Shown in pieces: positions 1,567-38,348 of a stretch of 64,000 nucleotides of DNA. The stretch lies in assembly GCA_033764445.1 (NCBI GenBank), contig JANRIZ010000008.1, positions 13,634 through 77,633 on the forward strand, read 5' to 3'. This stretch comes from Verrucomicrobiia bacterium. Lineage in GTDB: Bacteria; Verrucomicrobiota; Verrucomicrobiia; JAWXBN01. Made by a program: the position numbers and the translations under genes. Positions within the stretch are counted from its first letter, which is position 1, and each line of letters begins with the position of its first letter. A model generated the notes under the pieces. The model saw only the letters and a list, made by a program, of their open reading frames with translations, did no database searches and was not told the origin of the DNA.

Positions 1567-1823
1567 TCGACCTCCGGGGCAACGTCTGGTTTGAGTAGGA
1601 CCAATTCGATATAATGGAAGACATTCATTTTTGGATCCGGAATCTCTTGGGAAAAGTGGTCCCAGAAAACCATGGTGGTCGGCATCGGATTGTTTTCAGA
1701 GGCGGGGACATGCAGACATCCTTTAATGGCTTCCTTCCGGACAATGAACCGCTCAGCGGAGAATTTGATATATTTTGAGTCAACGATTCGTTTCTGTTCT
1801 TCGGGACGTGTGCTTTGGATCAT
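1563..1823 (-). CDS. hypothetical protein
   Basis: 86-aa ORF; 4-nt ATGA overlap with the downstream gene and with the relaxase stop suggests translational coupling. Confidence 0.4.
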   Translation of the reverse strand: MIQSTRPEEQKRIVDSKYIKFSAERFIVRKEAIKGCLHVPASENNPMPTTMVFWDHFSQEIPDPKMNVFHYIELVLLKPDVAPEVE

Positions 1824-3061
1824 GGATTGATTCCTTTCTTAATCCCTTGTTTTGGGCCGGATGAAAACTTTGGGCCTATGGCCCCCGGCACAATGGGATT
1901 TTTGATTTTTTGAGATGGTGACTGATAAACTTTTGTCTTGAGCTTCTGGCTGGGGACGAGGGTTTCGGTTGGCTCGTCTCCTCCCGCAAAGAAAACCCGG
2001 CCAGTGGGTCGGAGCTGCTTCTTGCGTTTTTGGAGCCCGGCCACATAGAACTGACGCATTTCAACTCGTTTGGCCTGGAGAGCGCGGACCTTTGTCCATT
2101 TGATTTCCTTGAAGACCTCCTCCGTGAGACGAATCCAGACGTTCGATCTTATTCCCAGTAGCCGTTTGGCCATCCCGTCTGCGCGGGATTTTCTCATGGC
2201 CATCTTTTCCTCGGCAATCTGCTTGTCGAGTTTTGCTATCTGTTCCCGTTGGAACTTCAACATTTCCCATGAATGATCAAAAGCTTTGACCTTGGGGACG
2301 TCCATTTTTGGAGTAATCATAAACTCCTCACTCCGCAAATGTTCGCGGGCAAATTTGGCCACCGCCTCCGGATCGGCTGCCCGTTTGAGCCATTGATTGA
2401 TCTGAACATCCGCTGATTTTTTTACAAAACCGAGTTTGTCCTTTTGGCCGTTCCAGTTGTGTCTGTACCTAGCAAGTTGATTACTGAACCCCACACGTTC
2501 CCCGTCGCGGGTACGCGGATGAACGAAAACGTGAGCATGGAGGTTGTCCGTGTCGTGATGGAGTCCAAAGCAATAACCGAGTGGGTCCCCTGGGTGGAAG
2601 TTATCAGAATAATTGCGCATTGTTTTAACAACAATGGATTTCAAAACTTCGTCCGGGTTAAGCCCGGCAGCGGTCATCTTGTCCCGGAATTCATTGGAAA
2701 GAGAAAAGATCAACCTATGATGAGTTGTTTGAAGTTTTGGGTATCGGGCATCGTGGCTACGCCATTCTCTCAAGATTCGCTCTTTGAGTTGTTCCGGGGT
2801 CATGTCCTGCTGATGGGTAAATGTCCCATCGGGATTCAATCCGACCTTGGCGTAAAAGAACCCTTCCGCGATCACCAAACCAAGTTTGTCCTTGTCCAAA
2901 TATTCATAGGCTTGCCACGGTTTGGGCGTATAGGTTTTACCTTCCTTCATCGCGTGAATGGTATCCGCCTCAAACTTCAAATCAGAAAGTTCATCGAGGT
3001 AGTCGGGCGAAAACTCGTCCGTCCACGTCTTGGATTTTTTGATAAGAATGGGTTGCTTCAT
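1820..3061 (-). CDS. relaxase/mobilisation nuclease, MobA/VirD2-like (MOBP/Q type)
   Basis: 413 aa; contains GLHHDTDNLHAHVFVHP, the relaxase His-triad motif III (HxDxxHxH). Confidence 0.75.
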   Translation of the reverse strand: MKQPILIKKSKTWTDEFSPDYLDELSDLKFEADTIHAMKEGKTYTPKPWQAYEYLDKDKLGLVIAEGFFYAKVGLNPDGTFTHQQDMTPEQLKERILREWRSHDARYPKLQTTHHRLIFSLSNEFRDKMTAAGLNPDEVLKSIVVKTMRNYSDNFHPGDPLGYCFGLHHDTDNLHAHVFVHPRTRDGERVGFSNQLARYRHNWNGQKDKLGFVKKSADVQINQWLKRAADPEAVAKFAREHLRSEEFMITPKMDVPKVKAFDHSWEMLKFQREQIAKLDKQIAEEKMAMRKSRADGMAKRLLGIRSNVWIRLTEEVFKEIKWTKVRALQAKRVEMRQFYVAGLQKRKKQLRPTGRVFFAGGDEPTETLVPSQKLKTKVYQSPSQKIKNPIVPGAIGPKFSSGPKQGIKKGINP

Positions 3062-3701: not shown

Positions 3702-4664
3702 TCATAGACTGAACCCTTTTGACCCCTGAGTTGAAAGGGCGACTGGTTTTTGGAATGAGGGTTTGACCGGCACGGCTACCGGGCCAGACTCAATGTCTGG
3801 GGTGAATTGCTCGTTGTTCTCCCATGAAATTCCTTGAATGAGATCGGTCGCCTTCTGTGCTTGTCCGGCAGCTTGTACCACCATAAGCGGATCATTTTCC
3901 AAAGCTACGATCCAATCTTGTATATAGCCCGCCGGGTGCTCGAAGGTGATTTTATCCATGATCCCCGCCTGATTGGACAGGAAGGAAGCCCCAATTTCAG
4001 CTATCAACTCCTCTTTGGCGTATTCTGGAGTGGAGCGTTTTGCCCCTAAAGTGGGTCGGGCTAACCGGGAGGAATGACCCGTTGCATGGGTCATTTCATG
4101 AAACAAAGTGTGATAAAATAACTCCTGCGAGCGAAACTGCGCCCGGGGAGGCATTAGAATTATATCATTTTTAAGATCGAATGCCGCCAATTTTGCCCCT
4201 TCTTGAATCGGACAAATTTTGGCTTGTTCGACGATTTCCTGGGCCTTGGCAAGGTCGCGGGCTGGGCTGGCGGGTGCGATAGACGGATGTTCAATCCCCT
4301 CGGTTTGCATCAGATTGAATGCATTATAGTAGCGTAGCATTGGAACTTGTTTGACTTTGCCGTCCTTTTCCAAGACAGGTTTTCCTGTCTCGTCGAGCTT
4401 GGGAAGGAACTTCCAAAAGACAATCAAAGTTGACTTGGACCCTTTTTTAATGGTTCCACCCAAGTCTTGGGCTTGCTTGAAAGTGAGCCAATAGGGCGAG
4501 CCATATCCTTTCATCATGGTCAATAGAACGTTGATCCCGCGGTACGGTTTCCGGGTGACAAGGTTTTGGGGAACACCATTTACCCATGGCATTTTCCACG
4601 GAATTTGCCCTTGCTTGAGTAATTCCAGCATCTTATCGGTGATGATTTGATAAACTTCATTCAC
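3702..4664 (-). CDS. ardC: ArdC-like antirestriction protein (N-terminal ssDNA-binding DUF1738 domain plus C-terminal HExxH zincin)
   Basis: N-terminus YQIITDKMLELLKQGQIPWKMPW...YRGINVLLL matches the ArdC_N consensus; HEMTHATGH metalloprotease motif. Confidence 0.8.
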   Translation of the reverse strand: MNEVYQIITDKMLELLKQGQIPWKMPWVNGVPQNLVTRKPYRGINVLLTMMKGYGSPYWLTFKQAQDLGGTIKKGSKSTLIVFWKFLPKLDETGKPVLEKDGKVKQVPMLRYYNAFNLMQTEGIEHPSIAPASPARDLAKAQEIVEQAKICPIQEGAKLAAFDLKNDIILMPPRAQFRSQELFYHTLFHEMTHATGHSSRLARPTLGAKRSTPEYAKEELIAEIGASFLSNQAGIMDKITFEHPAGYIQDWIVALENDPLMVVQAAGQAQKATDLIQGISWENNEQFTPDIESGPVAVPVKPSFQKPVALSTQGSKGFSL

Positions 4665-5052: not shown

Positions 5053-5862
5053 TCATGGTGAGAACCCCTTCCGCGGTTGGCTGGGTTCCCGCCGTTGAAA
5101 GACAGGTTCGCGGAGTTTTTCGACCAAGCTGCCGATTTCAGTTTGGCTCGCCTGGCTGACGCGCTGCTGGGAATAAAGAAGGGGGCTTTGCGGGTCCTTC
5201 AAGAGGTGGTCGGGTGGGGTATTGACAAGTTGGGTTTGATCTGGCAGGGTATTCCCAGAGTCAACCTGATATGTCTGACCAACCCCCTGGGCAATTATAG
5301 CCTGGGAAGATGCAGACCAGCGTTGGCTCTTTTTTGTGTCTTGATACCGGCAAAGGCCCTGTTGCCACCAATTCAGAAAGTGGGTTTCACTTTCGCGGGG
5401 GTGAATACTTTTGATCTCGTTGACTTGCTGAACGCCGTGAGATTGATTGGGGTGAAGGGCGGCCACACAGGTTTTGCCGTTGTGTTGCAGGTCGGTCATG
5501 ACCACCAAGCCCTCGGTGGTGGACTGGAAGATCATGACCGGACGGTGCAGGGCAGCGGGGACCTGTTTGATCATTTCGTAGGGCAGGTGGTGTTTGTCGT
5601 GGATGATTTTGTCGAGGGTCCGGGGCAAAAGAACCACCCCAACGGCGGGCACTCCAGCCAGCCGAAGCGCCTCCGAAGCTGCTCCGAGCCGGATCGGAGC
5701 CCGGCGCGGCCATTTCCCTGCTTGGTGTCCGGCCAGTGCATCGTCAAATTCCCTCTTTGACCTGGCAAACCGCCCAAAAAAATCCACCGCCATTTTCAGC
5801 CGTCCGAACTGGTCGGGTGGCAGGAATGGGAACTGTTCAGGGTGGATTGAAGGGTGCTTCAT
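5053..5862 (-). CDS. hypothetical protein
   Basis: 269-aa ORF co-oriented in the plasmid-like block; no motif recognised. Confidence 0.4.
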   Translation of the reverse strand: MKHPSIHPEQFPFLPPDQFGRLKMAVDFFGRFARSKREFDDALAGHQAGKWPRRAPIRLGAASEALRLAGVPAVGVVLLPRTLDKIIHDKHHLPYEMIKQVPAALHRPVMIFQSTTEGLVVMTDLQHNGKTCVAALHPNQSHGVQQVNEIKSIHPRESETHFLNWWQQGLCRYQDTKKSQRWSASSQAIIAQGVGQTYQVDSGNTLPDQTQLVNTPPDHLLKDPQSPLLYSQQRVSQASQTEIGSLVEKLREPVFQRREPSQPRKGFSP

Positions 5863-5863
5863 C

Positions 5864-6829
5864 TCAAAGTTTTATCCCTTTGATTGGGCTTTTTTTTTGA
5901 CGGGGCACAAAACGAGGGCGAGTCACGGCGCACAACTCCTCATTCCAGTCCTTGGCGTACGGGATCGCCGGACGTTCAATGAGCGGATTGTTCATTGCCT
6001 GGAGACGTCGGATTTCCTCCCGTCCAGCAGTGTCGTTGTCAAAAGCCGGTGTGATTTTGATTTGTTTTTGCTGGCAGAATTGCAAGAGGGCATCCGGAGT
6101 GTGACACCCGGCCAGACTGACCACGGCCACCGTCGGAAGAGGATTGTCCTTGTCGATTGTCCTGGCATGCCAGGACAAAGCATCTATTGGACTTTCAACA
6201 AGGACAACTGAATCAGCCTTGTGGAGGGGGCAGTGGAAAGTAAACCAAGCCTCGGTCTTGTTCCCCAGACAGGGCCGGAAACCGGATTGGTGTACGGTAT
6301 CCCGGAGGGTGGCACCCTGTACGGTCCCGTTTGCATCCGTATGCAAGAACACCAGACTAGGGTTAGGTCTATGGTCATTGGCATAGATTTTTCCGGAAGC
6401 AAAGGCTTCATCGACCAGTGGGGCGGGGAGGCATCGGGTTTCTACGAGGTAGTGCCGGGCTAGTGGCCAAAGGGTATCGTCCCTTTTGCCATAGGTTTTC
6501 ATCAGTTCCGCAAATGGTTTTCTCTCGGGAGCCGGTCGCTGCTCGGGTAGGGGGGAAACATTGGTAACCCCCCGGAAATCGGCCAATGATAGCACTGCCT
6601 CCTTGTAGGGGCATTGTTCCATGTACATTACCAAGTCAATGGCTCCGCCTCCGCCAATACCGGATTTATGGTCGTACCATTTAGAGCCAGTCACATTAAT
6701 GGCGTGCGCATCGGAGGTGTATTTGGTGGAGATGCCTTCCTTGGATTCGTGGTACCCCTTCGATTTGAGGATGTAGCCAAGGTCGATATTTCTGACTTCA
6801 TCAGCCAAAGTTTTGAGGTTGGATTTCAT
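5864..6829 (-). CDS. Toprim domain protein, plasmid primase-like (TraC/DUF3991-type)
   Basis: N-terminal Zn-ribbon-like region (CxxC...), then VVLVESPIDALSW and CHTPDALL resembling a Toprim acidic core. Confidence 0.55.
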   Translation of the reverse strand: MKSNLKTLADEVRNIDLGYILKSKGYHESKEGISTKYTSDAHAINVTGSKWYDHKSGIGGGGAIDLVMYMEQCPYKEAVLSLADFRGVTNVSPLPEQRPAPERKPFAELMKTYGKRDDTLWPLARHYLVETRCLPAPLVDEAFASGKIYANDHRPNPSLVFLHTDANGTVQGATLRDTVHQSGFRPCLGNKTEAWFTFHCPLHKADSVVLVESPIDALSWHARTIDKDNPLPTVAVVSLAGCHTPDALLQFCQQKQIKITPAFDNDTAGREEIRRLQAMNNPLIERPAIPYAKDWNEELCAVTRPRFVPRQKKSPIKGIKL

Positions 6830-7209
6830 TTTTCCTCCTTGCCGGTGATTTTTTCGAGTTCTACCTGCTTGATCCGGACCGTTTCCTCTCGGACAAATTT
6901 AAAAACAAAAACGGAGGTAAGTAATATGATGCAAACGCTGATTGAATATGCTGGAAAAATAAAAGGCCTCATCGAGGCGTTATGGTTCTCAACTGAATTT
7001 AGGGACTGGTTGCTGGTGTGGCTGACCTGGCGTTCATGCCAAAGCAGCGACAAATCTGGGAGGGTAGGAGGAAGGCTCCAGAGGATTCCCAACAGAATCG
7101 TAAGTTTGACAAAGCGCATGAAATATTTCAGGACAGGATCACTTTTGAAGAGTGTCAAAAATCTGTTCTCCGGATTTATCTCCGGGGACTGGTCTAAATG
7201 GTTGTTCAT
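6826..7209 (-). CDS. hypothetical membrane protein (N-terminus weakly resembles the TrbJ N-terminus)
   Basis: 127 aa with two hydrophobic segments; part of duplicated module 1. Confidence 0.35.
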   Translation of the reverse strand: MNNHLDQSPEINPENRFLTLFKSDPVLKYFMRFVKLTILLGILWSLPPTLPDLSLLWHERQVSHTSNQSLNSVENHNASMRPFIFPAYSISVCIILLTSVFVFKFVREETVRIKQVELEKITGKEEK

Positions 7210-7610
7210 GATTGCACCTCGTCTTTAGAAGCGGAGGCTTCATTTTGAACTTCCTGAGAAGATTTTTTACGGGTATCAACGGTCCATAACCAAACTGCGG
7301 TGGTAAAAATGATGATTTCGAGCGTGATAACGTGGATGCACAATACAATGGATTTGATCGCTGACTGGATTTGGGGTCCGGACACACCGTTTATGGTCAA
7401 GGTTGTGTCCGTGCTTGTGCTATTGGAATGGTTTGGGTTGAAGAAACGGAGCGTGTCGTTCATGGAATGCATGATCAGCCACATCATAAGAATTCCAGCG
7501 ATGGCAGGAAAACTGATACGTCGGAGCATCGCGAAGACCGCCCACTTTTTCTCCGGGGACTGGTTTGACATGATTTTCCGGTTGATGATTGGTTCGTATT
7601 TATTCGGCAT
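7206..7610 (-). CDS. small membrane protein, duplicated family (paralog of 15962..16351)
   Basis: C-terminal 45 aa (IVLCIHVITLEIIIFTTAVWLW...QEVQNEASASKDEVQS) is similar to the 15962..16351 product; ATGA overlap with the downstream ORF. Confidence 0.35.
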   Translation of the reverse strand: MPNKYEPIINRKIMSNQSPEKKWAVFAMLRRISFPAIAGILMMWLIMHSMNDTLRFFNPNHSNSTSTDTTLTINGVSGPQIQSAIKSIVLCIHVITLEIIIFTTAVWLWTVDTRKKSSQEVQNEASASKDEVQS

Positions 7611-7785
7611 ATTTTTAAAAGTGTTTGAGGCGTTTTATATGGACGGTCCAATCAATGGATATGGGATCGCTGCACTTTTCGTTGGGTACGGATCGGTTCT
7701 GGTGATGATATTCCTGTGGTGGAGGTTTGAGCGGGTTTCCTGGTTGACCAGGCAAAGCTCACCGCAGTTGGAATTTCCGCTGTGA
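7300..7785 (+). CDS. polytopic membrane protein, duplicated family (paralog of 16074..16526); antisense-overlapping 7206..7610
   Basis: 161 aa, ~4 TM helices. Conserved start (MMISSV/MMIWMV), internal KTAH motif and C-terminal Q[LM][ED]FPL shared with 16074..16526. Confidence 0.4.
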   Translation: MVKMMISSVITWMHNTMDLIADWIWGPDTPFMVKVVSVLVLLEWFGLKKRSVSFMECMISHIIRIPAMAGKLIRRSIAKTAHFFSGDWFDMIFRLMIGSYLFGIFLKVFEAFYMDGPINGYGIAALFVGYGSVLVMIFLWWRFERVSWLTRQSSPQLEFPL

Positions 7786-7839
7786 GTCCTCTCCAATTCC
7801 CGGCTTGTTTTCAACGAGTCATTGAGGTAGTTTGACTCC

Positions 7840-8064
7840 ATGAGTGTGACAGACATCAACAAGGCTCTGGATGGTTTGGCGGCCGCCGAAAGAATGGAAG
7901 TTGCCGCGCATCTGAACGCACTGCTTTTCAACTGGATGGATGATGATTGGGACCAGCAAATGATTGCCAATGATGCCCCTCTTCGGGCCATGCGTGAAAA
8001 GTCAGAAGCAGCTTTCAAGTCCGGACGGGCTACGCCCCTCGAAGAGGGTTTGGACAAGCCATGA
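7840..8064 (+). CDS. putative antitoxin partner of the RelE/ParE toxin
   Basis: 74-aa ORF whose stop overlaps the toxin ATG (ATGA); no antitoxin fold recognised. Confidence 0.4.
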   Translation: MSVTDINKALDGLAAAERMEVAAHLNALLFNWMDDDWDQQMIANDAPLRAMREKSEAAFKSGRATPLEEGLDKP

Positions 8065-8321
8065 CGTCTTTGGGGACGCCTGATTTTTGGGACTGTTACC
8101 ATAGCCTTCCTCTTCCGGTCCGCACTTTGGCCCGGAAGAATTTCCGGTTGTGGATTCAAAACCCGTCCCATCCCTCGCTTCGCTTCAAACCCCTGCGCCC
8201 TGGAGAATTCTGGTCCACACGGGTGGGGGACCATTACCGTGCGCTCGGTTATTTTCGAGACAACAACACCTTTGTGTGGACATGGATCGGAACCCATGAA
8301 CAATACAACAGGCTGCATTGA
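8061..8321 (+). CDS. RelE/ParE-family type II toxin
   Basis: 86 aa; ...RVGDHYRALGYFRDNNTFVWTWIGTHEQY matches the RelE/ParE C-terminal consensus (RvGdYRiiY...v.IlrigHRkdvY). Confidence 0.6.
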   Translation: MTSLGTPDFWDCYHSLPLPVRTLARKNFRLWIQNPSHPSLRFKPLRPGEFWSTRVGDHYRALGYFRDNNTFVWTWIGTHEQYNRLH

Positions 8322-10938: not shown

Positions 10939-11955
10939 TCATTGCTGGCCTCCCTGAAGCTTGCTGCGGAGTGAGGCCCCCACCGCCGCCTGGCTGGCAT
11001 CGAGGGGCTGGGTGATATAAACGTAGAAGGGCTTGCCCCCGGCCACGCGGACAAAGACGGCTTCGGATTGGATACGGGCGGCGATTTTCTGGGCTTCCTG
11101 CTGCATGGATGCGGCCACGGCTGAGGCCAGGGCGTCTTTGAGTCCGCCGCTTGAGCTGACAGTGGTCGCCCCTCCACCGCTGAAAATGGTTTGCTGGGAG
11201 CGGAATCCCTGGGCGGCGGCTGAGAGGAAGGTTGAAAAGAAAAGCTGCGCGTCGGCGGACCCATCGTAACCTTTGACATCCCCCCTCATCCCGGCGGAGG
11301 CATCGGTGATTTGCCAGCCATTGCCATCCGGATCAGGGGCGGCATCGAGGAGGATGCCAGTAAAGGGCAATTCCACTTCTTTCCCGTCCTCCTCCCTTTT
11401 AAAGACCAGAATCCAGTTGTTTTGACCGCCAATCCGGTCCCGTACCCGGTCGTTTTGACCAAAGCCATGGATCAAGGCCCCGGCAGGAATGACCAGTTCC
11501 TGGGAATCGGACCAGACATCCCGTAGGACAATGCCGATGATTGGGGTGGTCAATTTGGAGGAATCGACAGTATTGATCAAAATGCATTCAATGGGCGTTC
11601 CATAGGACACGCTCCGGCTGCTGATGGTGGGCTTTGAGCTGATAAAAAGAAAAATAGGAGGTTCCGGGGTTCTGGAAGTCCCCACTTCAACCTCCTCCCT
11701 ACGAGGAGGGGGAGGGGCCTGGGGTTGGGCTTCCAACACGGGTATTCCCGTATCCAAAGTCTGAACCGTGGTGGCAATTTCCTGGCCTTTGTCTGTTTTA
11801 TCCTCCTGCTTGGCCAGTGTGGGACCTTTTTTGAGTTTGAAATAAGCACCATAGAAAACGGCAACGATTGTAATCAGGACGATCAGCCAGATGATCCGTC
11901 CATCCTTGGTTTTCCATGAATCAACAAATGTTTTTTGTAGCCAACCCGTACTCAT
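10939..11955 (-). CDS. trbI: TrbI/VirB10-like T4SS protein
   Basis: N-terminal TM helix, Pro-rich linker (QPQAPPPPRREE) and ~200-aa C-terminal domain; position after the trbG-like gene. Confidence 0.6.
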   Translation of the reverse strand: MSTGWLQKTFVDSWKTKDGRIIWLIVLITIVAVFYGAYFKLKKGPTLAKQEDKTDKGQEIATTVQTLDTGIPVLEAQPQAPPPPRREEVEVGTSRTPEPPIFLFISSKPTISSRSVSYGTPIECILINTVDSSKLTTPIIGIVLRDVWSDSQELVIPAGALIHGFGQNDRVRDRIGGQNNWILVFKREEDGKEVELPFTGILLDAAPDPDGNGWQITDASAGMRGDVKGYDGSADAQLFFSTFLSAAAQGFRSQQTIFSGGGATTVSSSGGLKDALASAVAASMQQEAQKIAARIQSEAVFVRVAGGKPFYVYITQPLDASQAAVGASLRSKLQGGQQ

Positions 11956-13643: not shown

Positions 13644-14927
13644 TTAAGATTTCTTGTAGTAGCGGTCCATGTCGTCGAGTTGCATTTTGATGCGTTTGCG
13701 GGCCTCGGCTCCGTCATCCATCGGAGCGGAGGGCGTGGGGCTGCCACCGCCAGAGTTCTCAATCGAAGCAACTGAGGGGGAGCCAGAAGTGGCCGGGGAG
13801 GGCGTGCCTGTACCACCTGCAGACGCTGTGGGGCTGCCTGAGGAAGATTTTGCTCCGGATGCTTGGCCTCCACCACCACCTCCCTGTGTTTGGGCGGATG
13901 ATCCGCCGCCACTCTGAGGGGAGTCGATGGGTGGGGGAGGGGGGCCACTGGAGGGGGCTTTGTTGGTGAGAGCCTGTGCGCCTTGTGCCGCCCCACCAAG
14001 TCCCTGGACCGCTCCTGCGGCTCCACCCACGGCGGCAGCCCCGCCCAGACTCTTGGCTGCCATAGCCAATCCAATGGCCGCCCCGAGTCCCTGGACACCG
14101 GCTTGTAATGCAGTGGTGGCCGGACCAGCTCCGCGCATGATTGCGGCCACCACAAAAGGCACGGAAAGGTACATGGCATTAACAATGATCGCCCCCAGAA
14201 GGAGTCCGGCGGCAATCAATGCCCATCCAACGGTGGCAACCTGGATGACCGTGTTGGCGGTCCCTAAATTTACCGCCCCTGTCAATCCGCAAGCCTGTAA
14301 TATATCTGCCGTCAACTTGTAAATGATCACATCTACCACGGCCACGCCCAAGGCCCACAGGGCCACCCCGACAGAGGTGAGAATGAAGTTAATCCCGATT
14401 TGCTTCGTCCACGGCAATGCCAAAAATCCAAGGCCCAGAGGGGAGACCACAATCAGCCCGGCCATGGCGAAGTCCTGGAGCCATCCAATAGCTTTGACTC
14501 CAAAAGAACCAATCGCCTGAAAACAGGCTGAAAAGCAATAGCAAAGGTAATCTGCAATATTGAATGCACTCGGTTTTTCGCTGAATTCTGCTCTGAACAA
14601 ACTATGAAAACTTGCCGAATTTTTTTGCGCCACTTCCTCGCGCAGTTCCCAGAAGGCGTCTCGTGTGGCGATCATCGCCTCCCGGTAGCCGGTGATAAGG
14701 ATGACAATGACCAGCCCCACGATCAACGGTTTGAGCATCTTTTCGGGGGTGCGCTCGGCCTGTAGCGCGCCGTAAGCCATGCCCGCCATGGCCATGAGGT
14801 AAGGGATACCCAAGAGTGCCACGCGGAGATTCTCCACCGCCTGGTCCTCGAAAGCGCGTGAACCCCCGGTTCCGCTTGAAACCTGGGCCAAAAAGGGTAT
14901 CATTATACTCATGAAAATTGTCATCAT
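13644..14927 (-). CDS. trbL: TrbL/VirB6-like polytopic T4SS protein
   Basis: 427 aa with multiple TM helices and a Gly/Ser/Pro-rich C-terminal tail, typical of TrbL. Confidence 0.6.
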   Translation of the reverse strand: MMTIFMSIMIPFLAQVSSGTGGSRAFEDQAVENLRVALLGIPYLMAMAGMAYGALQAERTPEKMLKPLIVGLVIVILITGYREAMIATRDAFWELREEVAQKNSASFHSLFRAEFSEKPSAFNIADYLCYCFSACFQAIGSFGVKAIGWLQDFAMAGLIVVSPLGLGFLALPWTKQIGINFILTSVGVALWALGVAVVDVIIYKLTADILQACGLTGAVNLGTANTVIQVATVGWALIAAGLLLGAIIVNAMYLSVPFVVAAIMRGAGPATTALQAGVQGLGAAIGLAMAAKSLGGAAAVGGAAGAVQGLGGAAQGAQALTNKAPSSGPPPPPIDSPQSGGGSSAQTQGGGGGGQASGAKSSSGSPTASAGGTGTPSPATSGSPSVASIENSGGGSPTPSAPMDDGAEARKRIKMQLDDMDRYYKKS

Positions 14928-15128: not shown

Positions 15129-15965
15129 TCAGTACCCATTTTTTTTAAATGACTCCGCTCTTTGTGCTTTTGCCTTTTTATCCGCCCGTTTCTCCACTTC
15201 GATCCTGGCTTCCTCCTCGGCTTTGCGCTGTTTTTCGGCATCGTTGTCATTGGCCTCTTTTCGGGCCTGACGCTGATTGTTGGCGGCGGTTTCCTCGGCA
15301 TTGAGCGCGGCGAGTTGGGCCGTCAGTGCCCCGATGCGGACGGACACCGCCCGCTGTTCGGCTTCGGTCTTGGTCTGGACGTTATTGAGCTTTTCGAGTT
15401 CGGACATGATGGTTTTGCGTTTGTCTCGGACCTCTTCGAGAACTTTTTCATGATTGCCCTTCTCGTCCTCGTAGGCGGCGAATTTTTTGTAGAGGTCCAT
15501 ATTGCGGGTGAAAGATGACCCATCCGGTAGAGTGTTCGGGATAGACGCATATAGACCTTGCCCGGTTCCCTGGAGACTCTTGGCCGTGTCCATCGTTTCA
15601 CCGAGGGCATTGGCCAGTTTAAAGGTGGAGGAAAATGCAGAATTGGTGCCGAGATTGCCCATACTCCCCAACATCGAAAGAGCCTGGGACGGATCACCGG
15701 CGATAGTTAAGGCCTTCTGAGCGATTTCAACGTGTTCCTGAATCTTGGCGAATTCCTTATTGAAATTCTCCACGTCCTTGGCCCACTGACCGAGAATGTC
15801 AGTGTGTTGTACGGCTCTCTGTGTCTGTGCCCCGGCGTCATTGACGGCCATTTGTCCCCAGAGGGCTACCGGGGAAAAAAGACAGAGGGTGAGGGTATAC
15901 CAAGAAAGCCGCCGCAAACGGCTTTCCTGACGGTGGAGGGTGTTCTGCTTTGGGGTATGGATCAT
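15129..15965 (-). CDS. trbJ: TrbJ/VirB5-like T4SS protein
   Basis: Signal peptide, 278 aa, coiled-coil rich; operon position before trbL. Confidence 0.5.
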   Translation of the reverse strand: MIHTPKQNTLHRQESRLRRLSWYTLTLCLFSPVALWGQMAVNDAGAQTQRAVQHTDILGQWAKDVENFNKEFAKIQEHVEIAQKALTIAGDPSQALSMLGSMGNLGTNSAFSSTFKLANALGETMDTAKSLQGTGQGLYASIPNTLPDGSSFTRNMDLYKKFAAYEDEKGNHEKVLEEVRDKRKTIMSELEKLNNVQTKTEAEQRAVSVRIGALTAQLAALNAEETAANNQRQARKEANDNDAEKQRKAEEEARIEVEKRADKKAKAQRAESFKKNGY

Positions 15966-16351
15966 AGTTGTTCCTCTTTTTTGGAAGCGGCAGCTTCATT
16001 ATGAACTTCCTGAAAGTGGTTCTTTTGGGTATCCCGTTCTATCGGGTGATTTAACCAATAAACGGAGGTCAAGATGATGATTTGGATGGTAATAATGTGG
16101 ACGCAAAATGACATTGCTCTCATGAAGTCAATCTTTTCATTGCTCGTAATGGTGAGCGGATTTGTTGCGTCTGTTTTGTACATTTGCGATTTTTTGGGGA
16201 GGAGAGAAAAGGTTGTTGAAATCATTGAAAGAGTGACCGCTGAAATCAGCAAAACAGCGCATAATTTCGGCAGGCTCATTTCCGATTTTTTCACAGGGGA
16301 TAGTCTTGATCTGCTGGTCAGGTCAGTGGTCTGTGGATCGTTGTTTTGCAT
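15962..16351 (-). CDS. small membrane protein, duplicated family (paralog of 7206..7610)
   Basis: C-terminal FCVHIITIQIIILTSVYW...QEVHNEAAASKKEEQL matches the 7206..7610 product; ATGA overlap with trbJ. Confidence 0.35.
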   Translation of the reverse strand: MQNNDPQTTDLTSRSRLSPVKKSEMSLPKLCAVLLISAVTLSMISTTFSLLPKKSQMYKTDATNPLTITSNEKIDFMRAMSFCVHIITIQIIILTSVYWLNHPIERDTQKNHFQEVHNEAAASKKEEQL

Positions 16352-16526
16352 GATGATGTTGGTTTTTGAGGTGCGTTACCTGGTCATTCCCTGGAATGGA
16401 GTACTGGTAGGGTATGTACTGACTGCGGCAGGGTTTGTCCTCGCCCTGGTGGTGTGCTGGCTGAAATTCGAGCAGGAGGCCCTCCGGCCTTGTCTCGCCC
16501 CAGGGCAAATGGATTTTCCGCTCTGA
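16074..16526 (+). CDS. polytopic membrane protein, duplicated family (paralog of 7300..7785); antisense-overlapping 15962..16351
   Basis: 150 aa; shares the start, KTAH motif and C-terminal QMDFPL with 7300..7785. Confidence 0.4.
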   Translation: MMIWMVIMWTQNDIALMKSIFSLLVMVSGFVASVLYICDFLGRREKVVEIIERVTAEISKTAHNFGRLISDFFTGDSLDLLVRSVVCGSLFCMMMLVFEVRYLVIPWNGVLVGYVLTAAGFVLALVVCWLKFEQEALRPCLAPGQMDFPL

Positions 16527-16762
16527 TTCCAGTTTCATTCCCAGTAGCCCATTGTTTCCTTGTACAGGCGTGAGCCTGTCTAAATTCCTTCCTAAGCGAC
16601 GAGACCGACCGGAGGGAGGGCGAGTGACTAGTCAGGCCCGGAGCGAAGCGGAGGGCCATCCAGTGCTTACTGAGGGCGAGAGCCCGAAGGTCGATTGACA
16701 GGATGGGGGTCTGGGGGAAGGGGCCGGGAAAAATTTTTCGCGAAAATCCGTTTCCCCATCTA

Positions 16763-16780
16763 TGGATAAGATGGATAAGA
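16763..16780 (-). promoter_or_regulatory. two tandem DnaA-box-like sites (cTTATCCATcTTATCCAT on the minus strand)
   Basis: TTATCCAT x2 matches the DnaA box consensus TTATNCACA in 7 of 9 positions; adjacent to an AT-rich stretch and the iterons. Confidence 0.5.
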
Positions 16781-16851
16781 AAAGGGATAGTAAAAAATAT
16801 TGACAATGAATTTTGTTGGATTGAAAGCATCTTATGAAGAATTAAAGCCTT

Positions 16852-17085
16852 CATATCGCATTGAATTCCCCCCAAAAACAGGGGTATAACGCATCGAAAT
16901 CCCCCTAGTGATATATTTTTATTGCCATATCGCACTGTATTCCCCCTATCAAAACGGCATAACGCATCGAAATCCCCCCAAACAGTGGGTATAACGCATT
17001 GAATTCCCCCTATCAAAACGGCATAACGCATCGAAATCCCCCCAGTTTCCCATCTGGAAAAGTCATATCGCATCGAATTCCCCCT
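16852..17085. repeat. iteron array: seven ~22-bp direct repeats (YATAWCGCAYYGWAWTCCCCCY) at 32/42-bp spacing; candidate plasmid oriV
   Basis: Copies start at approximately 16852, 16885, 16926, 16957, 16990, 17022 and 17064; the array abuts the rep stop codon at 17087. Confidence 0.75.
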
Positions 17086-17086
17086 A

Positions 17087-18124
17087 TTAAGCAGCATGAC
17101 TTTTACCCTCCTTTTGGGAGGCTTTGACCTCCAGCATGTAGGTGTTGCCTTTGGCAATTTCGTCAGCAAAAGCTCGGGACACATAGAGCGTCCAGACCGC
17201 CCCAGACAGTTTGGGCCGTTTCCCCGTTTCGATGTAACGCAAGTCCTCTTTGTATGCCTGGATCGGGTGCAGATAGCCGCTGTCCTGGAGTTCCTTGAGA
17301 GCTTTTTGGACCGTGACAAGATAATTCCTAAATTGCTTTAGAGGCGCAACCGGTGCTTCTCGAATGATGGTTTCGAGGGAAATATGAAAGCCGGTTTGCT
17401 TGAAATGGTCGTGGCCAGTTGCCTGTCTGTAATTGTGGTTGATGCGTGTAGCCAGCCAGCGAGCCAGAGGCATCTTGAGGCTGCAGAGTTTTGTATGATT
17501 GATAGGGAAGTAGGCTTGATTCTTGATGGCCTCGCCAATCAGGCTGTGGAAGGACACCCTCACGGTACTGCTCTTTCCGGAATCATCCCCATTTTGATAA
17601 TTATAGGCGAGGTTGATGTAGGTCTGGTGGTGACCAATCCGGTTGTATTTGCCTTCTGCCAGCAATTCCAGCGAGGCAAGGGAAAGGATGTAAAGAGCCT
17701 CCTTGATTTCGGCGATTTTGTAGCCGTGTCCGACGGCGACAAGTTCCTTACGAATTCGGTAGAGAGTGGTATTGACGCAGACAAAGTAGCTTTGTGTTTC
17801 GGCCCCGACATTTAATGATGACTGTTCAACCGCGAGTTTTCGCAAGACTCGCTCAACGAGTTCTTCACGCGCCCCTGGTAAACGATAGACACCCTTGGCA
17901 ATCTCGGCACACCGGACCACAGCCCGGAGGGATCGGTTTTTAAACTTGAATTCAGTGACCTGCATTTCATGCGGTTTTCCTTCAAAAAAACGGGTTGCCG
18001 CATCGTAAATATCCACCGTCCTGGATTCATCGTTTTTTCCAAACCACCCTTGAAAAAAGTCAGTCTGCCGGGCCTCTGAGGCCGGAACCATGACTTCCTT
18101 CTGTGGTTTTTCTTTGTCGTTCAT
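17087..18124 (-). CDS. plasmid replication initiator (Rep) protein
   Basis: 345-aa ORF whose 3' end abuts the iteron array; winged-helix-like basic protein. Called from context plus general RepA-like features. Confidence 0.55.
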   Translation of the reverse strand: MNDKEKPQKEVMVPASEARQTDFFQGWFGKNDESRTVDIYDAATRFFEGKPHEMQVTEFKFKNRSLRAVVRCAEIAKGVYRLPGAREELVERVLRKLAVEQSSLNVGAETQSYFVCVNTTLYRIRKELVAVGHGYKIAEIKEALYILSLASLELLAEGKYNRIGHHQTYINLAYNYQNGDDSGKSSTVRVSFHSLIGEAIKNQAYFPINHTKLCSLKMPLARWLATRINHNYRQATGHDHFKQTGFHISLETIIREAPVAPLKQFRNYLVTVQKALKELQDSGYLHPIQAYKEDLRYIETGKRPKLSGAVWTLYVSRAFADEIAKGNTYMLEVKASQKEGKSHAA

Positions 18125-18128
18125 TGTA

Positions 18129-18539
18129 TTATCCCTGAAAATTCGTTGGCTCTACGTGATTCAAAGTTGTGTCGTCGCTTGCGATTTGCTGACAGACCTC
18201 TTCCGGGAGATTTGGATTCAACAGGTGAAGCTCATAGCGCGAGTTCCGATAAAAGAGCCGGATGACGGGAATCCGGAGGTAATAGATGGAAATCCAAGGA
18301 AAAGAGTCATCCGTAGTATCGCGGTTAAACACGACAGCCCCATTATTTTTGAGATCGGCAAAATCGGGATCAAGGTTGTAGTGAGTTTCGAGAAAGAATG
18401 CCAAAGCCAGCGTGAGATAATGTTTGCGCCGGTGCCCAATTTCAAAAGTCCCTGCCGGGAAATAAGCCTCATCATAGATGAGGTAATTTCCACAACATCT
18501 AATCTTTTCAGGATGAGGCATTTTCTCGTGTTCGTTCAT
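18129..18539 (-). CDS. hypothetical protein
   Basis: 136 aa; its stop lies 5 nt upstream of the rep start, co-oriented. Confidence 0.4.
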   Translation of the reverse strand: MNEHEKMPHPEKIRCCGNYLIYDEAYFPAGTFEIGHRRKHYLTLALAFFLETHYNLDPDFADLKNNGAVVFNRDTTDDSFPWISIYYLRIPVIRLFYRNSRYELHLLNPNLPEEVCQQIASDDTTLNHVEPTNFQG

Positions 18540-18570
18540 AACTTTATAAGTTAATATGATATGAAGTTTA

Positions 18571-18849
18571 TTATTTTTGGGTTTCGACGACCGGGACTGA
18601 TTGGTCTTGAATGAGCAACCGGCAAAGCCGATACAATTCGATGATGGAAAAAATATTGATCATTGCGGCAATTATGCTGATAGCAGTCGGCAAATTTTTG
18701 GAGTCCACAGGGAATTTTGTGGAGAAAATCAGGGCCAAGGAAAGAGTCCCAAAAAGTGACATCCCAAATGTCAAAAGCCGGTACAACCGCCGCAGGTGCC
18801 TTTCCTGCTGTGTGAGTGCCATTTGTTTGTTCATTTCGCTTTCCTGCAT
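18571..18849 (-). CDS. small membrane protein
   Basis: 92 aa with two TM helices. Confidence 0.35.
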   Translation of the reverse strand: MQESEMNKQMALTQQERHLRRLYRLLTFGMSLFGTLSLALIFSTKFPVDSKNLPTAISIIAAMINIFSIIELYRLCRLLIQDQSVPVVETQK

Positions 18850-34619: not shown

Positions 34620-36008
34620 CTACCGTTTGACTCCCTTGTCGAGCATCGGGATTTTGTCCTTCATCATCTGTTCCACAAAATGTGTCGAATAACGGCCGCG
34701 CCGGAAATTGGGGTCCCCCATGATGATCTGCTGGAGGGGAATGATGGTTTTGACGTCCTTGATGATCATCTCCCCCAGGGCCCGTTGCATCATGTCCAGA
34801 GTCGTCTTGCGGTCGGGTCCATGGGCGATGATTTTGCCGATCATCGAATCGTAATAAGGGGGAATCATGTAGCCGCCATAGGCATGTGAATCCACCCGGA
34901 TCCCCTTGCCGCCGGGGGCGTAGTACAGGCCGATGCGTCCGGGACTGGGCATGAAGTTGTTGAAGGGGTCCTCGGCATTGATCCGGCACTCGATGGCGTG
35001 ACCGCGGGGAATGATGTCGGATTGCGAATAGGGCAGGGATTCGCCCATGGCAATGCGGATCTGTTCCTTGATCAGATCGATCCCATACACTTCCTCGGTG
35101 ACCGGATGCTCAACCTGGATGCGGGTGTTCATTTCCATGAAATAAAAATTGTAGTCGTCGTCCACAAGAAATTCCAGGGTGCCCGCACTCTCGTACTTGA
35201 CCGCCTCGGCCAGCTTCACCGCCGCCTTGCCCATTTTGTCCCGGAGCTTGAGTCCCTCGCGGGTCTCCATCATCGGCGAAGGGCTTTCCTCGATGATCTT
35301 CTGGTTCCGCCGTTGCATGGAGCAATCCCGCTCTCCCAGATGCAGAACCTTGCCTTTTTTATCGGCCAGAATCTGAATCTCAATGTGATGCGGGTTTTCA
35401 ATGAGTTTTTCAATGTAGACCGACCCGTTTCCAAAGGCTTTTTCCGCTTCCTGACGGGCCGTGTGGAAGGACTTGACCAGACTCACGTCGTTGTGTGCCG
35501 GACGCATCCCCCGGCCCCCTCCCCCGGCCACGGCTTTGATCATGACGGGGTAACCGATGGTTTTGGCGATTTTCAACGCTTCCTGCTCGGTTTCAACAAT
35601 GCCATCACTCCCGGGGGTGGTCGGAACCCCCGCTTTCTTGGCCGTTTCCCGGGCGACGGCTTTGTCGCCCATCGACCGGATCGACGATGCCTTGGGTCCG
35701 ATAAACTTGATGTTGCAGCTTTCGCAGACCTCCGCAAAATGGGCATTTTCACTCAGAAAACCATACCCGGGATGGATCGCATCCACATCGGAAATTTCTG
35801 CCGCACTGATGATCCGGTCGATTTTGAGGTAACTTTCGTTGCTCGGGGGTTTACCGATACAGATGGCCTCGTCCGCCATTTGCACATGCAGGGAATCAAC
35901 ATCAGCCTCGGAATAAACGGCAACAGACCGTATCCCCATTTCTTTACAGGCCCGAATGATGCGCAGGGCGATTTCCCCACGATTGGCGATCAGAATTTTT
36001 TCAAACAT
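34620..36008 (-). CDS. accC: acetyl-CoA carboxylase biotin carboxylase subunit
   Basis: [26 protein letters not shown]... is a canonical AccC N-terminus; ATP-grasp motifs throughout. Confidence 0.95.
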
Positions 36009-37229: not shown

Positions 37230-38348
37230 ATGAATCTCGGCCTCCATTTTGTCGTCGGATTGCCCAAGGCGGACCTTGATTTTGAAACCCGCCGATGGCT
37301 GCGGGCGATCCGTCCCTCGGGTGTGATCCTTTTTGCCCGCAACATTCCCTCTCCGGAGCAGGCGGCGGATCTGACCCGGGAATTGCGTGCACTGCTGGGT
37401 GAGGACCTGCTCCTGTGTATCGACCACGAGGGAGGCCGGGTCAACCGGCTCAGGGACCATCTGGGTGTCATCCCCAGCGCCCAGCAGCTCGGGATTCTGG
37501 GGTCCGCACCGTTGGCCCGACGCCACGGGGTTCTTGCGGGTCGATTGCTCCGGCTCCTGGGTCTGAATTGGAACCTCGCCCCGGTTCTGGACCTGGCGCT
37601 CAAACGTGAGGTGGATAACGCGATTTCCGACCGCACCTTTTCCGCCGACCCCGCCGAGGTCACCCGCCTTTCCGCCGCATTTTGCGCGGGGTTGCTCTCC
37701 CAGGGGGTCATTCCCTGCGGCAAACATTTTCCCGGTTATGGCGCGGCCAACAAGGACCCGCACAAATCCCTGCCGGTCATTGACCGGACCCTCAAACAGC
37801 TCCGGGAGGAGGACCTGGTTCCCTACAAAAACCTGCTCCAGGCACGGCCCTCCCCGCTGCCCAGTCTCATGACCGCGCACGGACACTTTCCGGCGGTGCA
37901 TCCGGACCCCCGGCCCGCCTCTGTTTCGGGTCCGATCATGAACGGGTGGCTCCGGCGCCGGTTGCGCTACAAAGGCATTGTCATCACCGATGACCTGGAA
38001 ATGGGTGGGATCACCCAGGTGATGTCCGTCGGGGAGGCCTGTGTGCAGACGCTCCGGGCCGGGATCGATTTCAACCTCATCTGCCATACCCCCGATCTGA
38101 TGCTGCACTCGCTCGAGGCGGTGGAGAAGGCCCTCCGGGACGGCACATTGAAAACCAGGCTCCTGGAGCCGTCGGCCCGGCGCATCGCGCGGTTCAAAAA
38201 ACGGGTTCCCAAACCGCTTCCCTATTCCCCCGCACAATTTGCCCGACTGCGGGAACAGACCGCCCGCTTCACGGGGTCCGTCCTTGAAAAACTCCCCGCC
38301 GCCCGGCGAAAACTCGACTCTGGTCTGGCCGCTGTGGGCGAAAAATAG
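37230..38348 (+). CDS. nagZ: beta-N-acetylhexosaminidase (GH3, NagZ-like)
   Basis: GH3 motifs ...CIDHEGGRV..., KHFPGYG. Confidence 0.75.
   Translation: MNLGLHFVVGLPKADLDFETRRWLRAIRPSGVILFARNIPSPEQAADLTRELRALLGEDLLLCIDHEGGRVNRLRDHLGVIPSAQQLGILGSAPLARRHGVLAGRLLRLLGLNWNLAPVLDLALKREVDNAISDRTFSADPAEVTRLSAAFCAGLLSQGVIPCGKHFPGYGAANKDPHKSLPVIDRTLKQLREEDLVPYKNLLQARPSPLPSLMTAHGHFPAVHPDPRPASVSGPIMNGWLRRRLRYKGIVITDDLEMGGITQVMSVGEACVQTLRAGIDFNLICHTPDLMLHSLEAVEKALRDGTLKTRLLEPSARRIARFKKRVPKPLPYSPAQFARLREQTARFTGSVLEKLPAARRKLDSGLAAVGEK

What the first reader, a model, noticed from the sequence alone, without database searches (positions are those of the whole stretch)
6826..7785. Duplicated module (6.8-7.8 kb and 15.96-16.5 kb) with convergent, overlapping ORFs conserved at the protein level on both strands
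Two diverged copies of the same ~0.6 kb segment exist inside the element. In both copies, a minus-strand ORF (7206..7610 and 15962..16351, each ATGA-coupled to the downstream gene) overlaps a longer plus-strand ORF (7300..7785 and 16074..16526) over ~300 bp. The minus products share their C-terminal 45 aa (...VHIITIQIIILTSVYW...QEVHNEAAASKKEEQL). The plus products share their N-terminus (MMISSV.../MMIWMV...), an internal KTAH..F..D motif and a C-terminal Q[LM][ED]FPL stop-proximal motif. That similarity extends through the stretch where the minus-strand proteins have diverged. This fits either real antiparallel overlapping genes or one real gene whose mirror frame stays open. The plus-strand genes run opposite to the rest of the element. 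Their position next to trbJ or its remnant could fit an entry-exclusion or immunity function.
Basis: seen in the sequence. Interest (0 to 1): 0.6.

Follow-up and report, generated by a model that had tools for sequence, protein, structure and literature searches.

The report
Duplicated head-to-head pair of small membrane genes
A conjugative element in a Verrucomicrobiae genome carries two old copies of a 0.63-kb cassette with two small orphan membrane-protein genes that start inside each other on opposite strands; most of the "conservation on both strands" is a predictable mirror effect, and only a weak, unproven signal of true double coding remains in the middle.

Summary
Window 7170-7805 and 15926-16545 are diverged copies of one cassette, and both keep a minus ORF (134/129 aa) and a plus ORF (161/150 aa) that overlap by 311/278 nt. 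The ORFs are head-to-head (5' ends overlap), not convergent. The two frames are wobble-on-wobble antisense. In this frame real genes of the same element routinely leave 31-134 stop-free codons and about a third of their similarity score, so open frames and similarity on both strands prove little. Block-wise comparison of A and B shows the minus frame is the constrained one on the left (7209-7365). There the plus frame has stops left of 7300. The plus frame is the constrained one on the right (7540-7785), including the first 23 codons of the minus ORF. The central 150 nt is the least conserved part. It shows only weak independent signal for both frames (P about 0.03-0.08). Both genes are therefore real in their 3' parts, and the extent of true double coding (0 to about 300 nt) is unresolved. 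No homologue exists in any database searched, so the proposed dN/dS test cannot be run. Function is unknown. A membrane accessory or exclusion role, or antisense control at two operon heads, is inference only.

The parts
7170..7805 (.). Cassette copy A (extent of detectable similarity to copy B)
   Evidence: MAFFT, blastn and tblastx of A against B
7206..7610 (-). Minus ORF A, 134 aa. Predicted 2-TM hairpin with a charged C-tail. ATGA-coupled to ORF 6826-7209. The NCBI annotation calls only 7206-7463 (85 aa).
   Evidence: codon log-odds +0.20 per codon
7300..7785 (+). Plus ORF A, 161 aa from GTG 7300 or 158 aa from ATG 7309. Three hydrophobic segments. The NCBI annotation calls only 7471-7785 (104 aa).
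7540..7785 (+). Stretch of copy A where the plus frame is the constrained one. It includes 7540-7610, which lies inside minus ORF A.
   Evidence: BLOSUM 1.26 against 0.37 per column; plus codon position 2 is 63% identical against 47% and 46% for the others; 7 of 8 non-fourfold wobble changes are synonymous in plus against 4 of 10 in minus; resampling P=0.002-0.012
7209..7365 (-). Stretch of copy A where the minus frame is the constrained one (second TM helix and the QEVxNEAxASKxE tail). The plus frame has stops left of 7300.
7369..7518 (.). Central, least conserved part of the overlap. Neither frame dominates, and each shows a weak excess.
   Evidence: 0.84 (minus) against 0.68 (plus) per column; wobble identity 32%; mirror excess z=2.4; resampling P=0.025 and 0.077
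15926..16545 (.). Cassette copy B
15962..16351 (-). Minus ORF B, 129 aa, 2-TM hairpin. ATGA-coupled to the 278-aa coiled-coil gene 15129-15965, which sits in the TrbJ position. A protein record with the full-length sequence exists (P0012).
16074..16526 (+). Plus ORF B, 150 aa. GGAGG lies 5 nt upstream of ATG 16074. One caller takes 16077-16526 (149 aa). Another protein record holds only 16350-16526 (58 aa, P0013).
6826..7209 (-). 127-aa ORF downstream of minus ORF A. Similar size, with a second hydrophobic helix (IILLTSVF) and a charged tail in the same positions. A possible third, very diverged paralogue of the minus protein; not established.
   Evidence: BLASTP E=0.27 with a 45%-identical 22-aa helix; hhalign E=0.0085; hydropathy
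7840..8321 (+). 74-aa ORF plus an 86-aa ParE-like toxin ORF, on the same strand as plus ORF A and 55 nt downstream of it (context)
   Evidence: PF24732 E=1.3e-8

Best explanation
An old duplication inside a conjugative element produced two copies of a 0.63-kb cassette that holds two real, orphan, small membrane-protein genes arranged head-to-head. The minus gene encodes a hairpin of two membrane helices with a charged tail. It is translationally coupled (ATGA) to the genes downstream: the TrbJ-position/TrbL-like/TrbI-like block after copy B, and the ORF127/primase/ArdC/relaxase block after copy A. The plus gene encodes a protein with at least two membrane helices and ends ...FPL. The 3' parts of the two genes are exclusive. 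Their 5' parts run into each other. The long plus ORF reaching back to MMI, and much of the similarity seen on both strands, come from the wobble-on-wobble antisense frame, which stays open and keeps similarity by itself. True double coding is therefore probably partial: nil to about 140 nt, and about 70 nt if the minus gene starts at its conserved ATG. Shown: the duplication, the frame-specific constraint at each end, and the mirror effect. Inferred: the divergent transcripts overlap at their 5' ends, so each gene is antisense to the other's start region. This would let the plus gene interfere with expression of the minus gene and the operon behind it, and the reverse. The proteins would be membrane accessories of the transfer apparatus, possibly with an exclusion-type role.
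For: The duplication is confined to the cassette. On the left the minus frame is favoured: the plus frame has stops left of 7300, codon log-odds at 7209-7299 are +0.26 for minus against -0.58 for plus, and BLOSUM at 7277-7365 is 2.1 against 1.45. On the right the plus frame is favoured: 1.26 against 0.37 per column, position-2 periodicity, and 7 of 8 synonymous wobble changes. Given the minus proteins the plus similarity is in excess (P=0.002-0.012), but given the plus proteins the minus similarity is not (P=0.77). Mirror controls: real element genes leave 31-134 stop-free codons in this antisense frame. The mirror score is about 0.85 times the real score minus 0.85. Plus-frame similarity of 47% over 36 aa continues where the plus frame is closed, 7171-7278. 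Elsewhere in the window, SMC, a histidine kinase, biotin carboxylase and a GH3 gene all have family-less antisense ORFs of 338-1113 aa. Across the overlap, codon statistics favour minus (+0.18/+0.14 per codon) over plus (-0.13/-0.09). The Shine-Dalgarno-like motif before MMI is made of the commonest Thr and Ser codons of the minus frame. Aligned internal starts exist in both copies: minus ATG 7463/16225 and plus ATG 7471/GTG 16233, 7 nt apart. Gene callers disagree between copies.
Against: In the central block the mirror frame is more similar than in 98% of control windows (z=2.4). Both frames show some independent excess there (P=0.025 and 0.077). The excess falls where each frame encodes its own hydrophobic helix (P about 0.065 each). 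The plus codon score in the overlap (-0.09 to -0.13) is above every true mirror frame (-0.27 to -1.1). In copy B there is no ATG between 16149 and 16350, so a short plus gene that still contains the conserved FFTGD stretch needs GTG 16233 or a TTG, none with a Shine-Dalgarno motif. The full-length plus products have three hydrophobic segments at conserved positions. No expression data exist, and there are only two sequences.
Confidence: 0.45

Rival explanations
1. Full antisense double coding. The plus protein starts at MMI (7309/16074) and the minus protein at 7610/16351. About 280-310 nt then encode parts of both proteins, with the constraint interleaved: each protein's membrane helices lie opposite the other's loops and tails.
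For: All four ORF ends are at aligned positions in both copies, although wobble sites are saturated in the centre. Shine-Dalgarno-like motifs sit before both MMI starts (-6.4 and -10.2 kcal/mol). One gene caller takes the full plus ORF in copy B. There is a mirror excess in the central block (z=2.4). The plus-helix region shows plus excess and the minus-helix region shows minus excess (each P about 0.065, Fisher combined about 0.03). Openness of both frames has joint P 0.024-0.056. Both full-length products have conserved hydrophobic segments consistent with simple membrane proteins (2 and 3 segments).
Against: Codon statistics for plus are negative in the left two thirds of the overlap. The overlap centre is the least conserved part, whereas double constraint should slow change. 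The Shine-Dalgarno motif and ATGATG follow from preferred codons of the conserved minus residues. The P values are marginal and partly post hoc. Long double-coding regions are rare, and long antiparallel ORFs are usually not under selection (bioRxiv 10.1101/724807).
Confidence: 0.3
2. Only the minus gene is real. The conserved 175 nt upstream of it (7611-7785/16352-16526) is its promoter or leader, and the plus ORF is a shadow.
For: The minus ORFs are on the operon strand and ATGA-coupled. Codon log-odds favour the minus frame in the overlap. In copy A, even the plus-only stretch has no positive plus score.
Against: In 7540-7785 the similarity is three-periodic in the plus frame, 7 of 8 informative wobble changes are synonymous in plus, the stop after FPL is at the same aligned position, and similarity decays after it. 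Copy B's plus-only stretch scores +0.22 per codon for plus. The tblastx score is 59.7 bits in the plus frame.
Confidence: 0.08
3. Only the plus gene is real, and the minus ORF is its shadow.
For: The plus ORF is longer. One caller prefers it in copy B. The first 23 minus codons show no constraint of their own.
Against: The best-conserved DNA of the cassette (7207-7351) lies largely where the plus frame is closed by stops. There it encodes a conserved minus tail that ends in ATGA on the next gene in both copies. Minus codon scores are positive throughout.
Confidence: 0.05

Closest known systems
Shadow (mirror) antisense ORFs opposite real genes, e.g. the long antiparallel ORFs opposite dnaK once filed as a Pfam family (bioRxiv 10.1101/724807)
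   Same: A long ORF is open on the opposite strand. Its translation is similar between homologues simply because the real gene is conserved. The same behaviour is measured here in control genes.
   Different: Here each strand also has a stretch where it alone is constrained, and 175 nt of the plus ORF lie outside the minus ORF. The plus ORF is therefore not only a shadow.
Experimentally supported antisense overlapping genes in bacteria (olg1/olg2 of Pseudomonas aeruginosa, PMC8850804; EHEC candidates, PMC9927249)
   Same: These are long antisense overlaps of two ORFs, proposed to be both translated and under selection.
   Different: Those are young ORFs embedded in long conserved 'mother' genes, and they are backed by ribosome profiling. 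Here two small orphan genes overlap head-to-head. The support comes only from two old paralogues, with no expression data.
Divergent transcription units with overlapping 5' ends on conjugative plasmids (prgQ/prgX of pCF10; from my own knowledge, not checked here)
   Same: Head-to-head units on a conjugative element whose transcripts would be antisense to each other's 5' regions. This is a natural basis for mutual interference.
   Different: In pCF10 the overlap acts through regulatory RNAs and a repressor. Here both partners are membrane-protein ORFs, and no transcript ends are known. This is a resemblance of layout only.
Entry-exclusion proteins of conjugative systems (TraS, Eex, TrbK; from my own knowledge)
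   Same: Small, hydrophobic, poorly conserved proteins encoded among type IV secretion genes.
   Different: There is no sequence relation to any family. Related T4SS loci lack the cassette. No functional data exist.

Membership tests
Shadow/mirror ORF (artefact) | The antisense frame stays open through codon composition alone | tested here: met
   Real element genes have 31-134 stop-free codons in this frame. Given the proteins, the chance of an open mirror frame is 0.08-0.34 per copy.
Shadow/mirror ORF (artefact) | No constraint on the antisense frame beyond that imposed by the real gene | tested here: not met
   Over 7540-7785 the plus frame is constrained on its own. Over 7300-7518 the result is inconclusive.
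Antisense overlapping protein-coding gene pair | Both ORFs intact in all homologues | tested here: met
   Both paralogues keep both ORFs with aligned ends. Only two sequences exist.
Antisense overlapping protein-coding gene pair | Purifying selection on both frames inside the overlap | tested here: inconclusive
   Central block: minus given plus P=0.025, plus given minus P=0.077. At 7540-7610 only plus is constrained. At 7300-7365 neither is significant once wobble identity is kept.
Antisense overlapping protein-coding gene pair | Transcription and translation of both ORFs | not testable with these tools
   No expression data. The promoter scan was uninformative.
Entry exclusion proteins (TraS/Eex/TrbK) | Sequence membership in a described exclusion family | tested here: not met
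   No hit at or near any curated cut-off in Pfam or NCBIfam, and no meaningful hit in PHROGs or PADLOC.
Entry exclusion proteins (TraS/Eex/TrbK) | Blocks transfer into cells that carry the element | not testable with these tools
   Needs mating assays.
Type I toxin-antitoxin (Hok-like small membrane toxin with antisense RNA) | Match to a toxin family model | tested here: not met
   NF007279 scores 13.3 bits against a cut-off of 73, E=0.056, over one hydrophobic stretch only. No Rfam match in 1-26000.
VirB2/TrbC-type pilin (small 2-TM protein of T4SS) | Match to pilin family models | tested here: not met
   No Pfam or NCBIfam hit for either minus protein.

The most novel reading that the evidence does not exclude
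Both cassette copies encode two membrane proteins from the same ~300 nt on opposite strands, in the wobble-on-wobble frame. The arrangement would be interleaved, with each protein's membrane helices written opposite the other's loops, and it would have been kept through a duplication old enough to saturate silent sites. That would be a natural, paralogue-supported case of long antisense double coding in a bacterial mobile element.
Probability: 0.3. Interest if true: 0.7.

Novelty: new member of a known kind. Interest (0 to 1): 0.35.

Why it matters
Long antisense ORF pairs are a standing problem for genome annotation: four annotation outcomes were seen here for one cassette type. This case gives a worked example of how far the mirror effect explains 'conservation on both strands' and where it stops. 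If the residual signal in the centre is real, the cassette would be a compact system for testing antisense double coding, because two diverged copies sit in one element. Each cassette also sits at the head of a block of transfer or processing genes, so it may mark a control point of the element.

Tried and rejected
Homologue searches were all empty. These were word-indexed searches with both copy-A ORFs and a full HMMER profile search of a fused minus+plus alignment against 1.84 billion representatives, which returned only four records from this same locus. Degenerate-pattern scans of genomes and metagenomes and tblastn on plasmids also found nothing.

An anchor search with the TrbI-like protein found 8 relatives at 33-46% identity. 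Four of their contigs (L001-L004) have no cassette. L005 and L006 are the same sequence as the window, with one SNP at 15200 outside the cassette. Polymorphism-based dN/dS is therefore not possible.

Synonymous codon bias (RSCU) has too little power. The wobble synonymous/non-synonymous count is informative only on the right side. AlphaFold models had mean pLDDT of 54 and 62, too low for fold searches, so none were run. The promoter/terminator scan gave nothing above shuffles. Rfam gave nothing.

Rejected ideas: the trbJ remnant next to copy A, a Hok-like toxin, and a PADLOC DpdF hit at E=0.0045 and 13.5 bits, treated as noise. The Shine-Dalgarno motif before MMI is discounted as evidence because ACC and TCC are the commonest Thr and Ser codons.
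Full report
**Context**

The window comes from a Verrucomicrobiae metagenome-assembled genome (NCBI locus tags SFY92_00645/00650, 97-kb contig). Bases 1-24000 carry a conjugative element transcribed almost entirely on the minus strand.
- Relaxase at 1820-3061, ArdC at 3702-4664, a MuF_C-domain protein at 5053-5862 and a Toprim primase at 5864-6829.
- TrbI/VirB10 at 10939-11955.
- A VirB6/TrbL-like protein at 13644-14927, assigned by weak similarity and position.
- A 278-aa coiled-coil protein at 15129-15965 in the TrbJ position.
- A VirB4-like ATPase at 20635-23304.

**Observation check**

The two cassettes are real. Similarity between 5-10 kb and 14-19.5 kb is confined to about 7170-7805 and about 15926-16545. 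The best nucleotide HSP is 70% identical over 155 nt (7207-7351), and a weaker one covers 7542-7802.

Both copies contain a minus ORF (7206-7610, 134 aa; 15962-16351, 129 aa) that overlaps the next gene by ATGA. Both also contain a longer plus ORF (7300-7785, 161 aa; 16074-16526, 150 aa). The minus products align at 35% identity (E=4e-12) and the plus products at 28% over 158 residues (E=9e-18).

Three details of the finding are wrong.
- The plus start lies left of the minus start, so the ORFs are head-to-head with overlapping 5' ends, not convergent.
- The neighbour of copy A (ORF 6826-7209) is not a credible trbJ remnant.
- The KTAH strings are out of register in the alignments.

**Frame relation and the mirror effect**

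Third codon positions of the two ORFs coincide, and position 1 of one lies opposite position 2 of the other. In this frame an antisense stop needs a Tyr, His or Gln codon after a pyrimidine-ending codon. The dinucleotides AT, GC, TA and CG map onto themselves, so Ile/Met and Ala mirror as Ile/Met and Ala.

I measured what this gives for genes that are certainly single-coded.
- The 20 confident element genes have 31-134 consecutive stop-free codons in this antisense frame.
- I aligned 15 real gene pairs (window against distant relatives L001, L002, L004; 22-42% identity). The real frame scores 0.8-2.1 BLOSUM62 units per column and the mirror frame -0.4 to +1.2, roughly 0.85R - 0.85 where R is the real-frame score. 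This is the highest of all wrong frames in most of the pairs.
- Inside the cassette, plus-frame similarity of 47% over 36 residues continues through 7171-7278, where the plus frame is closed by stops.
- Elsewhere in the window, SMC, a histidine kinase, biotin carboxylase and a GH3 glycosidase each face a family-less antisense ORF of 338-1113 aa.
- Given the minus protein sequences and the element's codon usage, the plus frame stays open with probability 0.08 (A) and 0.31 (B). The converse gives 0.17 and 0.34.

Open frames and two-strand similarity are therefore weak evidence by themselves.

**Block-by-block comparison of A and B**

All indels are multiples of three (9, 3 and 21 nt). This gives four ungapped blocks.

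| Block | Coordinates (copy A) | Minus frame (BLOSUM62 per column) | Plus frame (BLOSUM62 per column) | Reading |
|---|---|---|---|---|
| Left end | 7209-7276 | conserved tail QEVxNEAxASKxE | stops | minus only |
| Left | 7277-7365 | 2.1 | 1.45 | minus favoured |
| Centre | 7369-7518 | 0.84 | 0.68 | neither dominates |
| Right | 7540-7810 | 0.37 | 1.26 | plus favoured |

- **Left.** Codon log-odds (real against mirror, trained on element genes) for 7209-7299 are +0.26 per codon for minus and -0.58 for plus.
- **Right.** Identity is 63% at plus position 2 against 47% at position 1 and 46% at wobble sites. Of the wobble changes that can alter the residue, 7 of 8 are synonymous in plus (expected 2.6) against 4 of 10 in minus.
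- **Resampling test, right.** I fixed one frame's protein pair and resampled synonymous codons. In 7540-7610, the first 23 codons of the minus ORF, plus similarity exceeds expectation given the minus proteins (P=0.002; 0.012 when wobble identity is preserved). Minus similarity does not exceed expectation given the plus proteins (P=0.77).
- **Resampling controls.** The two single-frame blocks behave as expected, with P=0.41 and 0.58.
- **Centre.** This is the most diverged block, with 32% wobble identity. The mirror score is higher than in 98% of control windows of similar real score (z=2.4). Resampling gives P=0.025 (minus given plus) and 0.077 (plus given minus).
- **Centre, split by hydropathy.** The region of the first plus helix shows plus excess (P=0.064). 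The region of the first minus helix shows minus excess (P=0.069). This is suggestive but not conclusive.

**Codon statistics over the whole overlap**

The minus frame scores +0.18 (A) and +0.14 (B) per codon and the plus frame -0.13 and -0.09. Real genes score +0.15 to +0.53 and true mirrors -0.27 to -1.1. The minus frame therefore looks like a weakly scoring real (membrane) gene, and the plus frame falls between the two ranges. The model is noisy at this length. In copy A it gives no positive plus score even in the plus-only stretch, whereas copy B scores +0.22 per codon there.

**Start sites and annotation**
- The MMI starts have Shine-Dalgarno-like motifs (-6.4 and -10.2 kcal/mol; 16% of background ATGs reach -6). 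They are built from ACC and TCC, the commonest Thr and Ser codons of the conserved minus helix.
- The 5'-most minus ATGs have no such motif. The upstream region in copy A is A/T-rich. Several confident element genes also lack a Shine-Dalgarno motif and have A/T-rich upstream regions.
- Both copies also have aligned internal starts 7 nt apart, back to back: minus ATG 7463/16225 and plus ATG 7471/GTG 16233.
- Gene callers disagree. The NCBI annotation has 85 aa + 104 aa in copy A. Copy B has protein records of 129 aa and 58 aa. The caller used for the Logan assemblies takes only the minus ORF in A (121 aa) and only the plus ORF in B (149 aa).

**Protein features**

The minus products have two hydrophobic helices at conserved positions, basic residues before the first helix and after the second, and a charged tail. 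The plus products have three hydrophobic segments at conserved positions. AlphaFold models are all-helical but of low confidence (pLDDT 54 and 62). No Pfam, NCBIfam, PHROGs, PADLOC or Rfam hit is meaningful.

**Homologues**

None were found. Only records from this locus came back from a profile search of 1.84 billion representative proteins. Every other protein and DNA search was empty as well. The T4SS relatives found through TrbI (33-46% identity) go directly from a p147-like gene to the TrbJ-position gene. They lack 16.0-18.6 kb of this element, cassette B included. Two other assemblies carry the identical sequence.

**Interpretation**

Both strands carry a real gene, and each has a 3' part of its own.
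- The plus gene must start left of 7540/16281.
- The minus gene must include its second helix and tail.
- If the minus first helix is translated, as the well-formed hairpin and the codon scores suggest, the coding regions overlap by at least 30-50 nt. They overlap by about 70-140 nt with the conserved minus ATG and an internal plus start.
- Full overlap (about 300 nt) needs the plus start at MMI. The specific evidence for that is marginal.

I put partial or no double coding at 0.45, full double coding at 0.30, minus only at 0.08 and plus only at 0.05. The rest is unassigned.

In any of the two-gene models the transcripts must overlap at their 5' ends. Each cassette sits at the head of a block of minus-strand genes. 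Mutual antisense or collision control is therefore a reasonable but untested mechanism. An exclusion or other membrane accessory role is possible but has no support beyond size, hydrophobicity and location.

**Comparison and novelty**

The behaviour is closest to shadow ORFs (bioRxiv 10.1101/724807) on the one hand and to candidate antisense overlapping genes (PMC8850804, PMC9927249) on the other. It is a new, orphan example of a known kind of arrangement. Its unusual feature is an internal replicate: two copies that have diverged to saturation. Interest is moderate to low unless translation of both frames in the centre is shown.

Noticed in passing
window 16852-17095 and 17087-18124 (-): Seven tandem ~32-nt direct repeats (CATAACGCATCGAAATCCCCCC..., spacing 32-42) abut the 3' end of a 345-aa ORF that has no Pfam, PDB, PHROGs or PADLOC match. 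The layout looks like iterons with a replication initiator. It lies 325 nt beyond the end of plus ORF B.
   Followed up: partly
window about 16000-18600 compared with L002:3164-4254 and L004:6035-7266: In the distant T4SS relatives the p147-like gene is followed directly by the TrbJ-position gene. Here ORFs 18129-18539 and 17087-18124, the repeats and cassette B lie in between. This block looks like an insertion or accessory module.
   Followed up: partly
window 7840-8064 and 8061-8321 (+): A 74-aa ORF and an 86-aa ParE-like toxin ORF (PF24732, E=1.3e-8) lie on the plus strand 55 nt after plus ORF A. They interrupt the minus-strand gene array and may be co-transcribed with plus ORF A.
   Followed up: no
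window 7175-7193 and 7546-7564: A 19-nt direct repeat, TTT(A/T)TCTCCGGGGACTGGT, with an exact 15-mer shared. One copy is in the start of ORF 6826-7209 (encoding QSPE). The other is in the start region of minus ORF A (encoding QSPEKK, and FFSGDW on the plus strand). Copy B has only a diverged form of the second site.
   Followed up: partly
window 6826-7209 (-) and 6614-7228 (+): The 127-aa ORF after minus ORF A is of similar size and shares the second hydrophobic helix (IILLTSVF) and charged tail with the minus proteins. Similarity is weak (hhalign E=0.0085). It too is covered by a 204-aa antisense ORF in the same wobble-on-wobble frame, which has no family hit.
   Followed up: partly
window 39811-43479, 55879-58476, 34620-36008, 37230-38348: Four host genes with strong Pfam support face antisense ORFs without any family. 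SMC faces one of 1113 aa, a hybrid histidine kinase 763 aa, biotin carboxylase 338 aa and a GH3 glycosidase 410 aa. The last is longer than the real gene.
   Followed up: yes
L005 and L006 (Logan assemblies DRR729085, DRR729080): Two independent public assemblies contain the same element sequence: 100% over 16030 nt, and 99.99% over 9734 nt with one SNP at window 15200 in the TrbJ-position gene. The element is otherwise unique in the collections searched.
   Followed up: yes
window 9242, 13621, 18539, 19398, 20595 (gene starts, minus strand): Five confident element genes lack a Shine-Dalgarno motif, and three of them (13621, 18539, 20595) have A/T-rich upstream regions such as TCATTATAACTTAATAACTT. 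Many translationally coupled genes have strong GGAGG-type motifs. This suggests two classes of initiation signal in this element.
   Followed up: no
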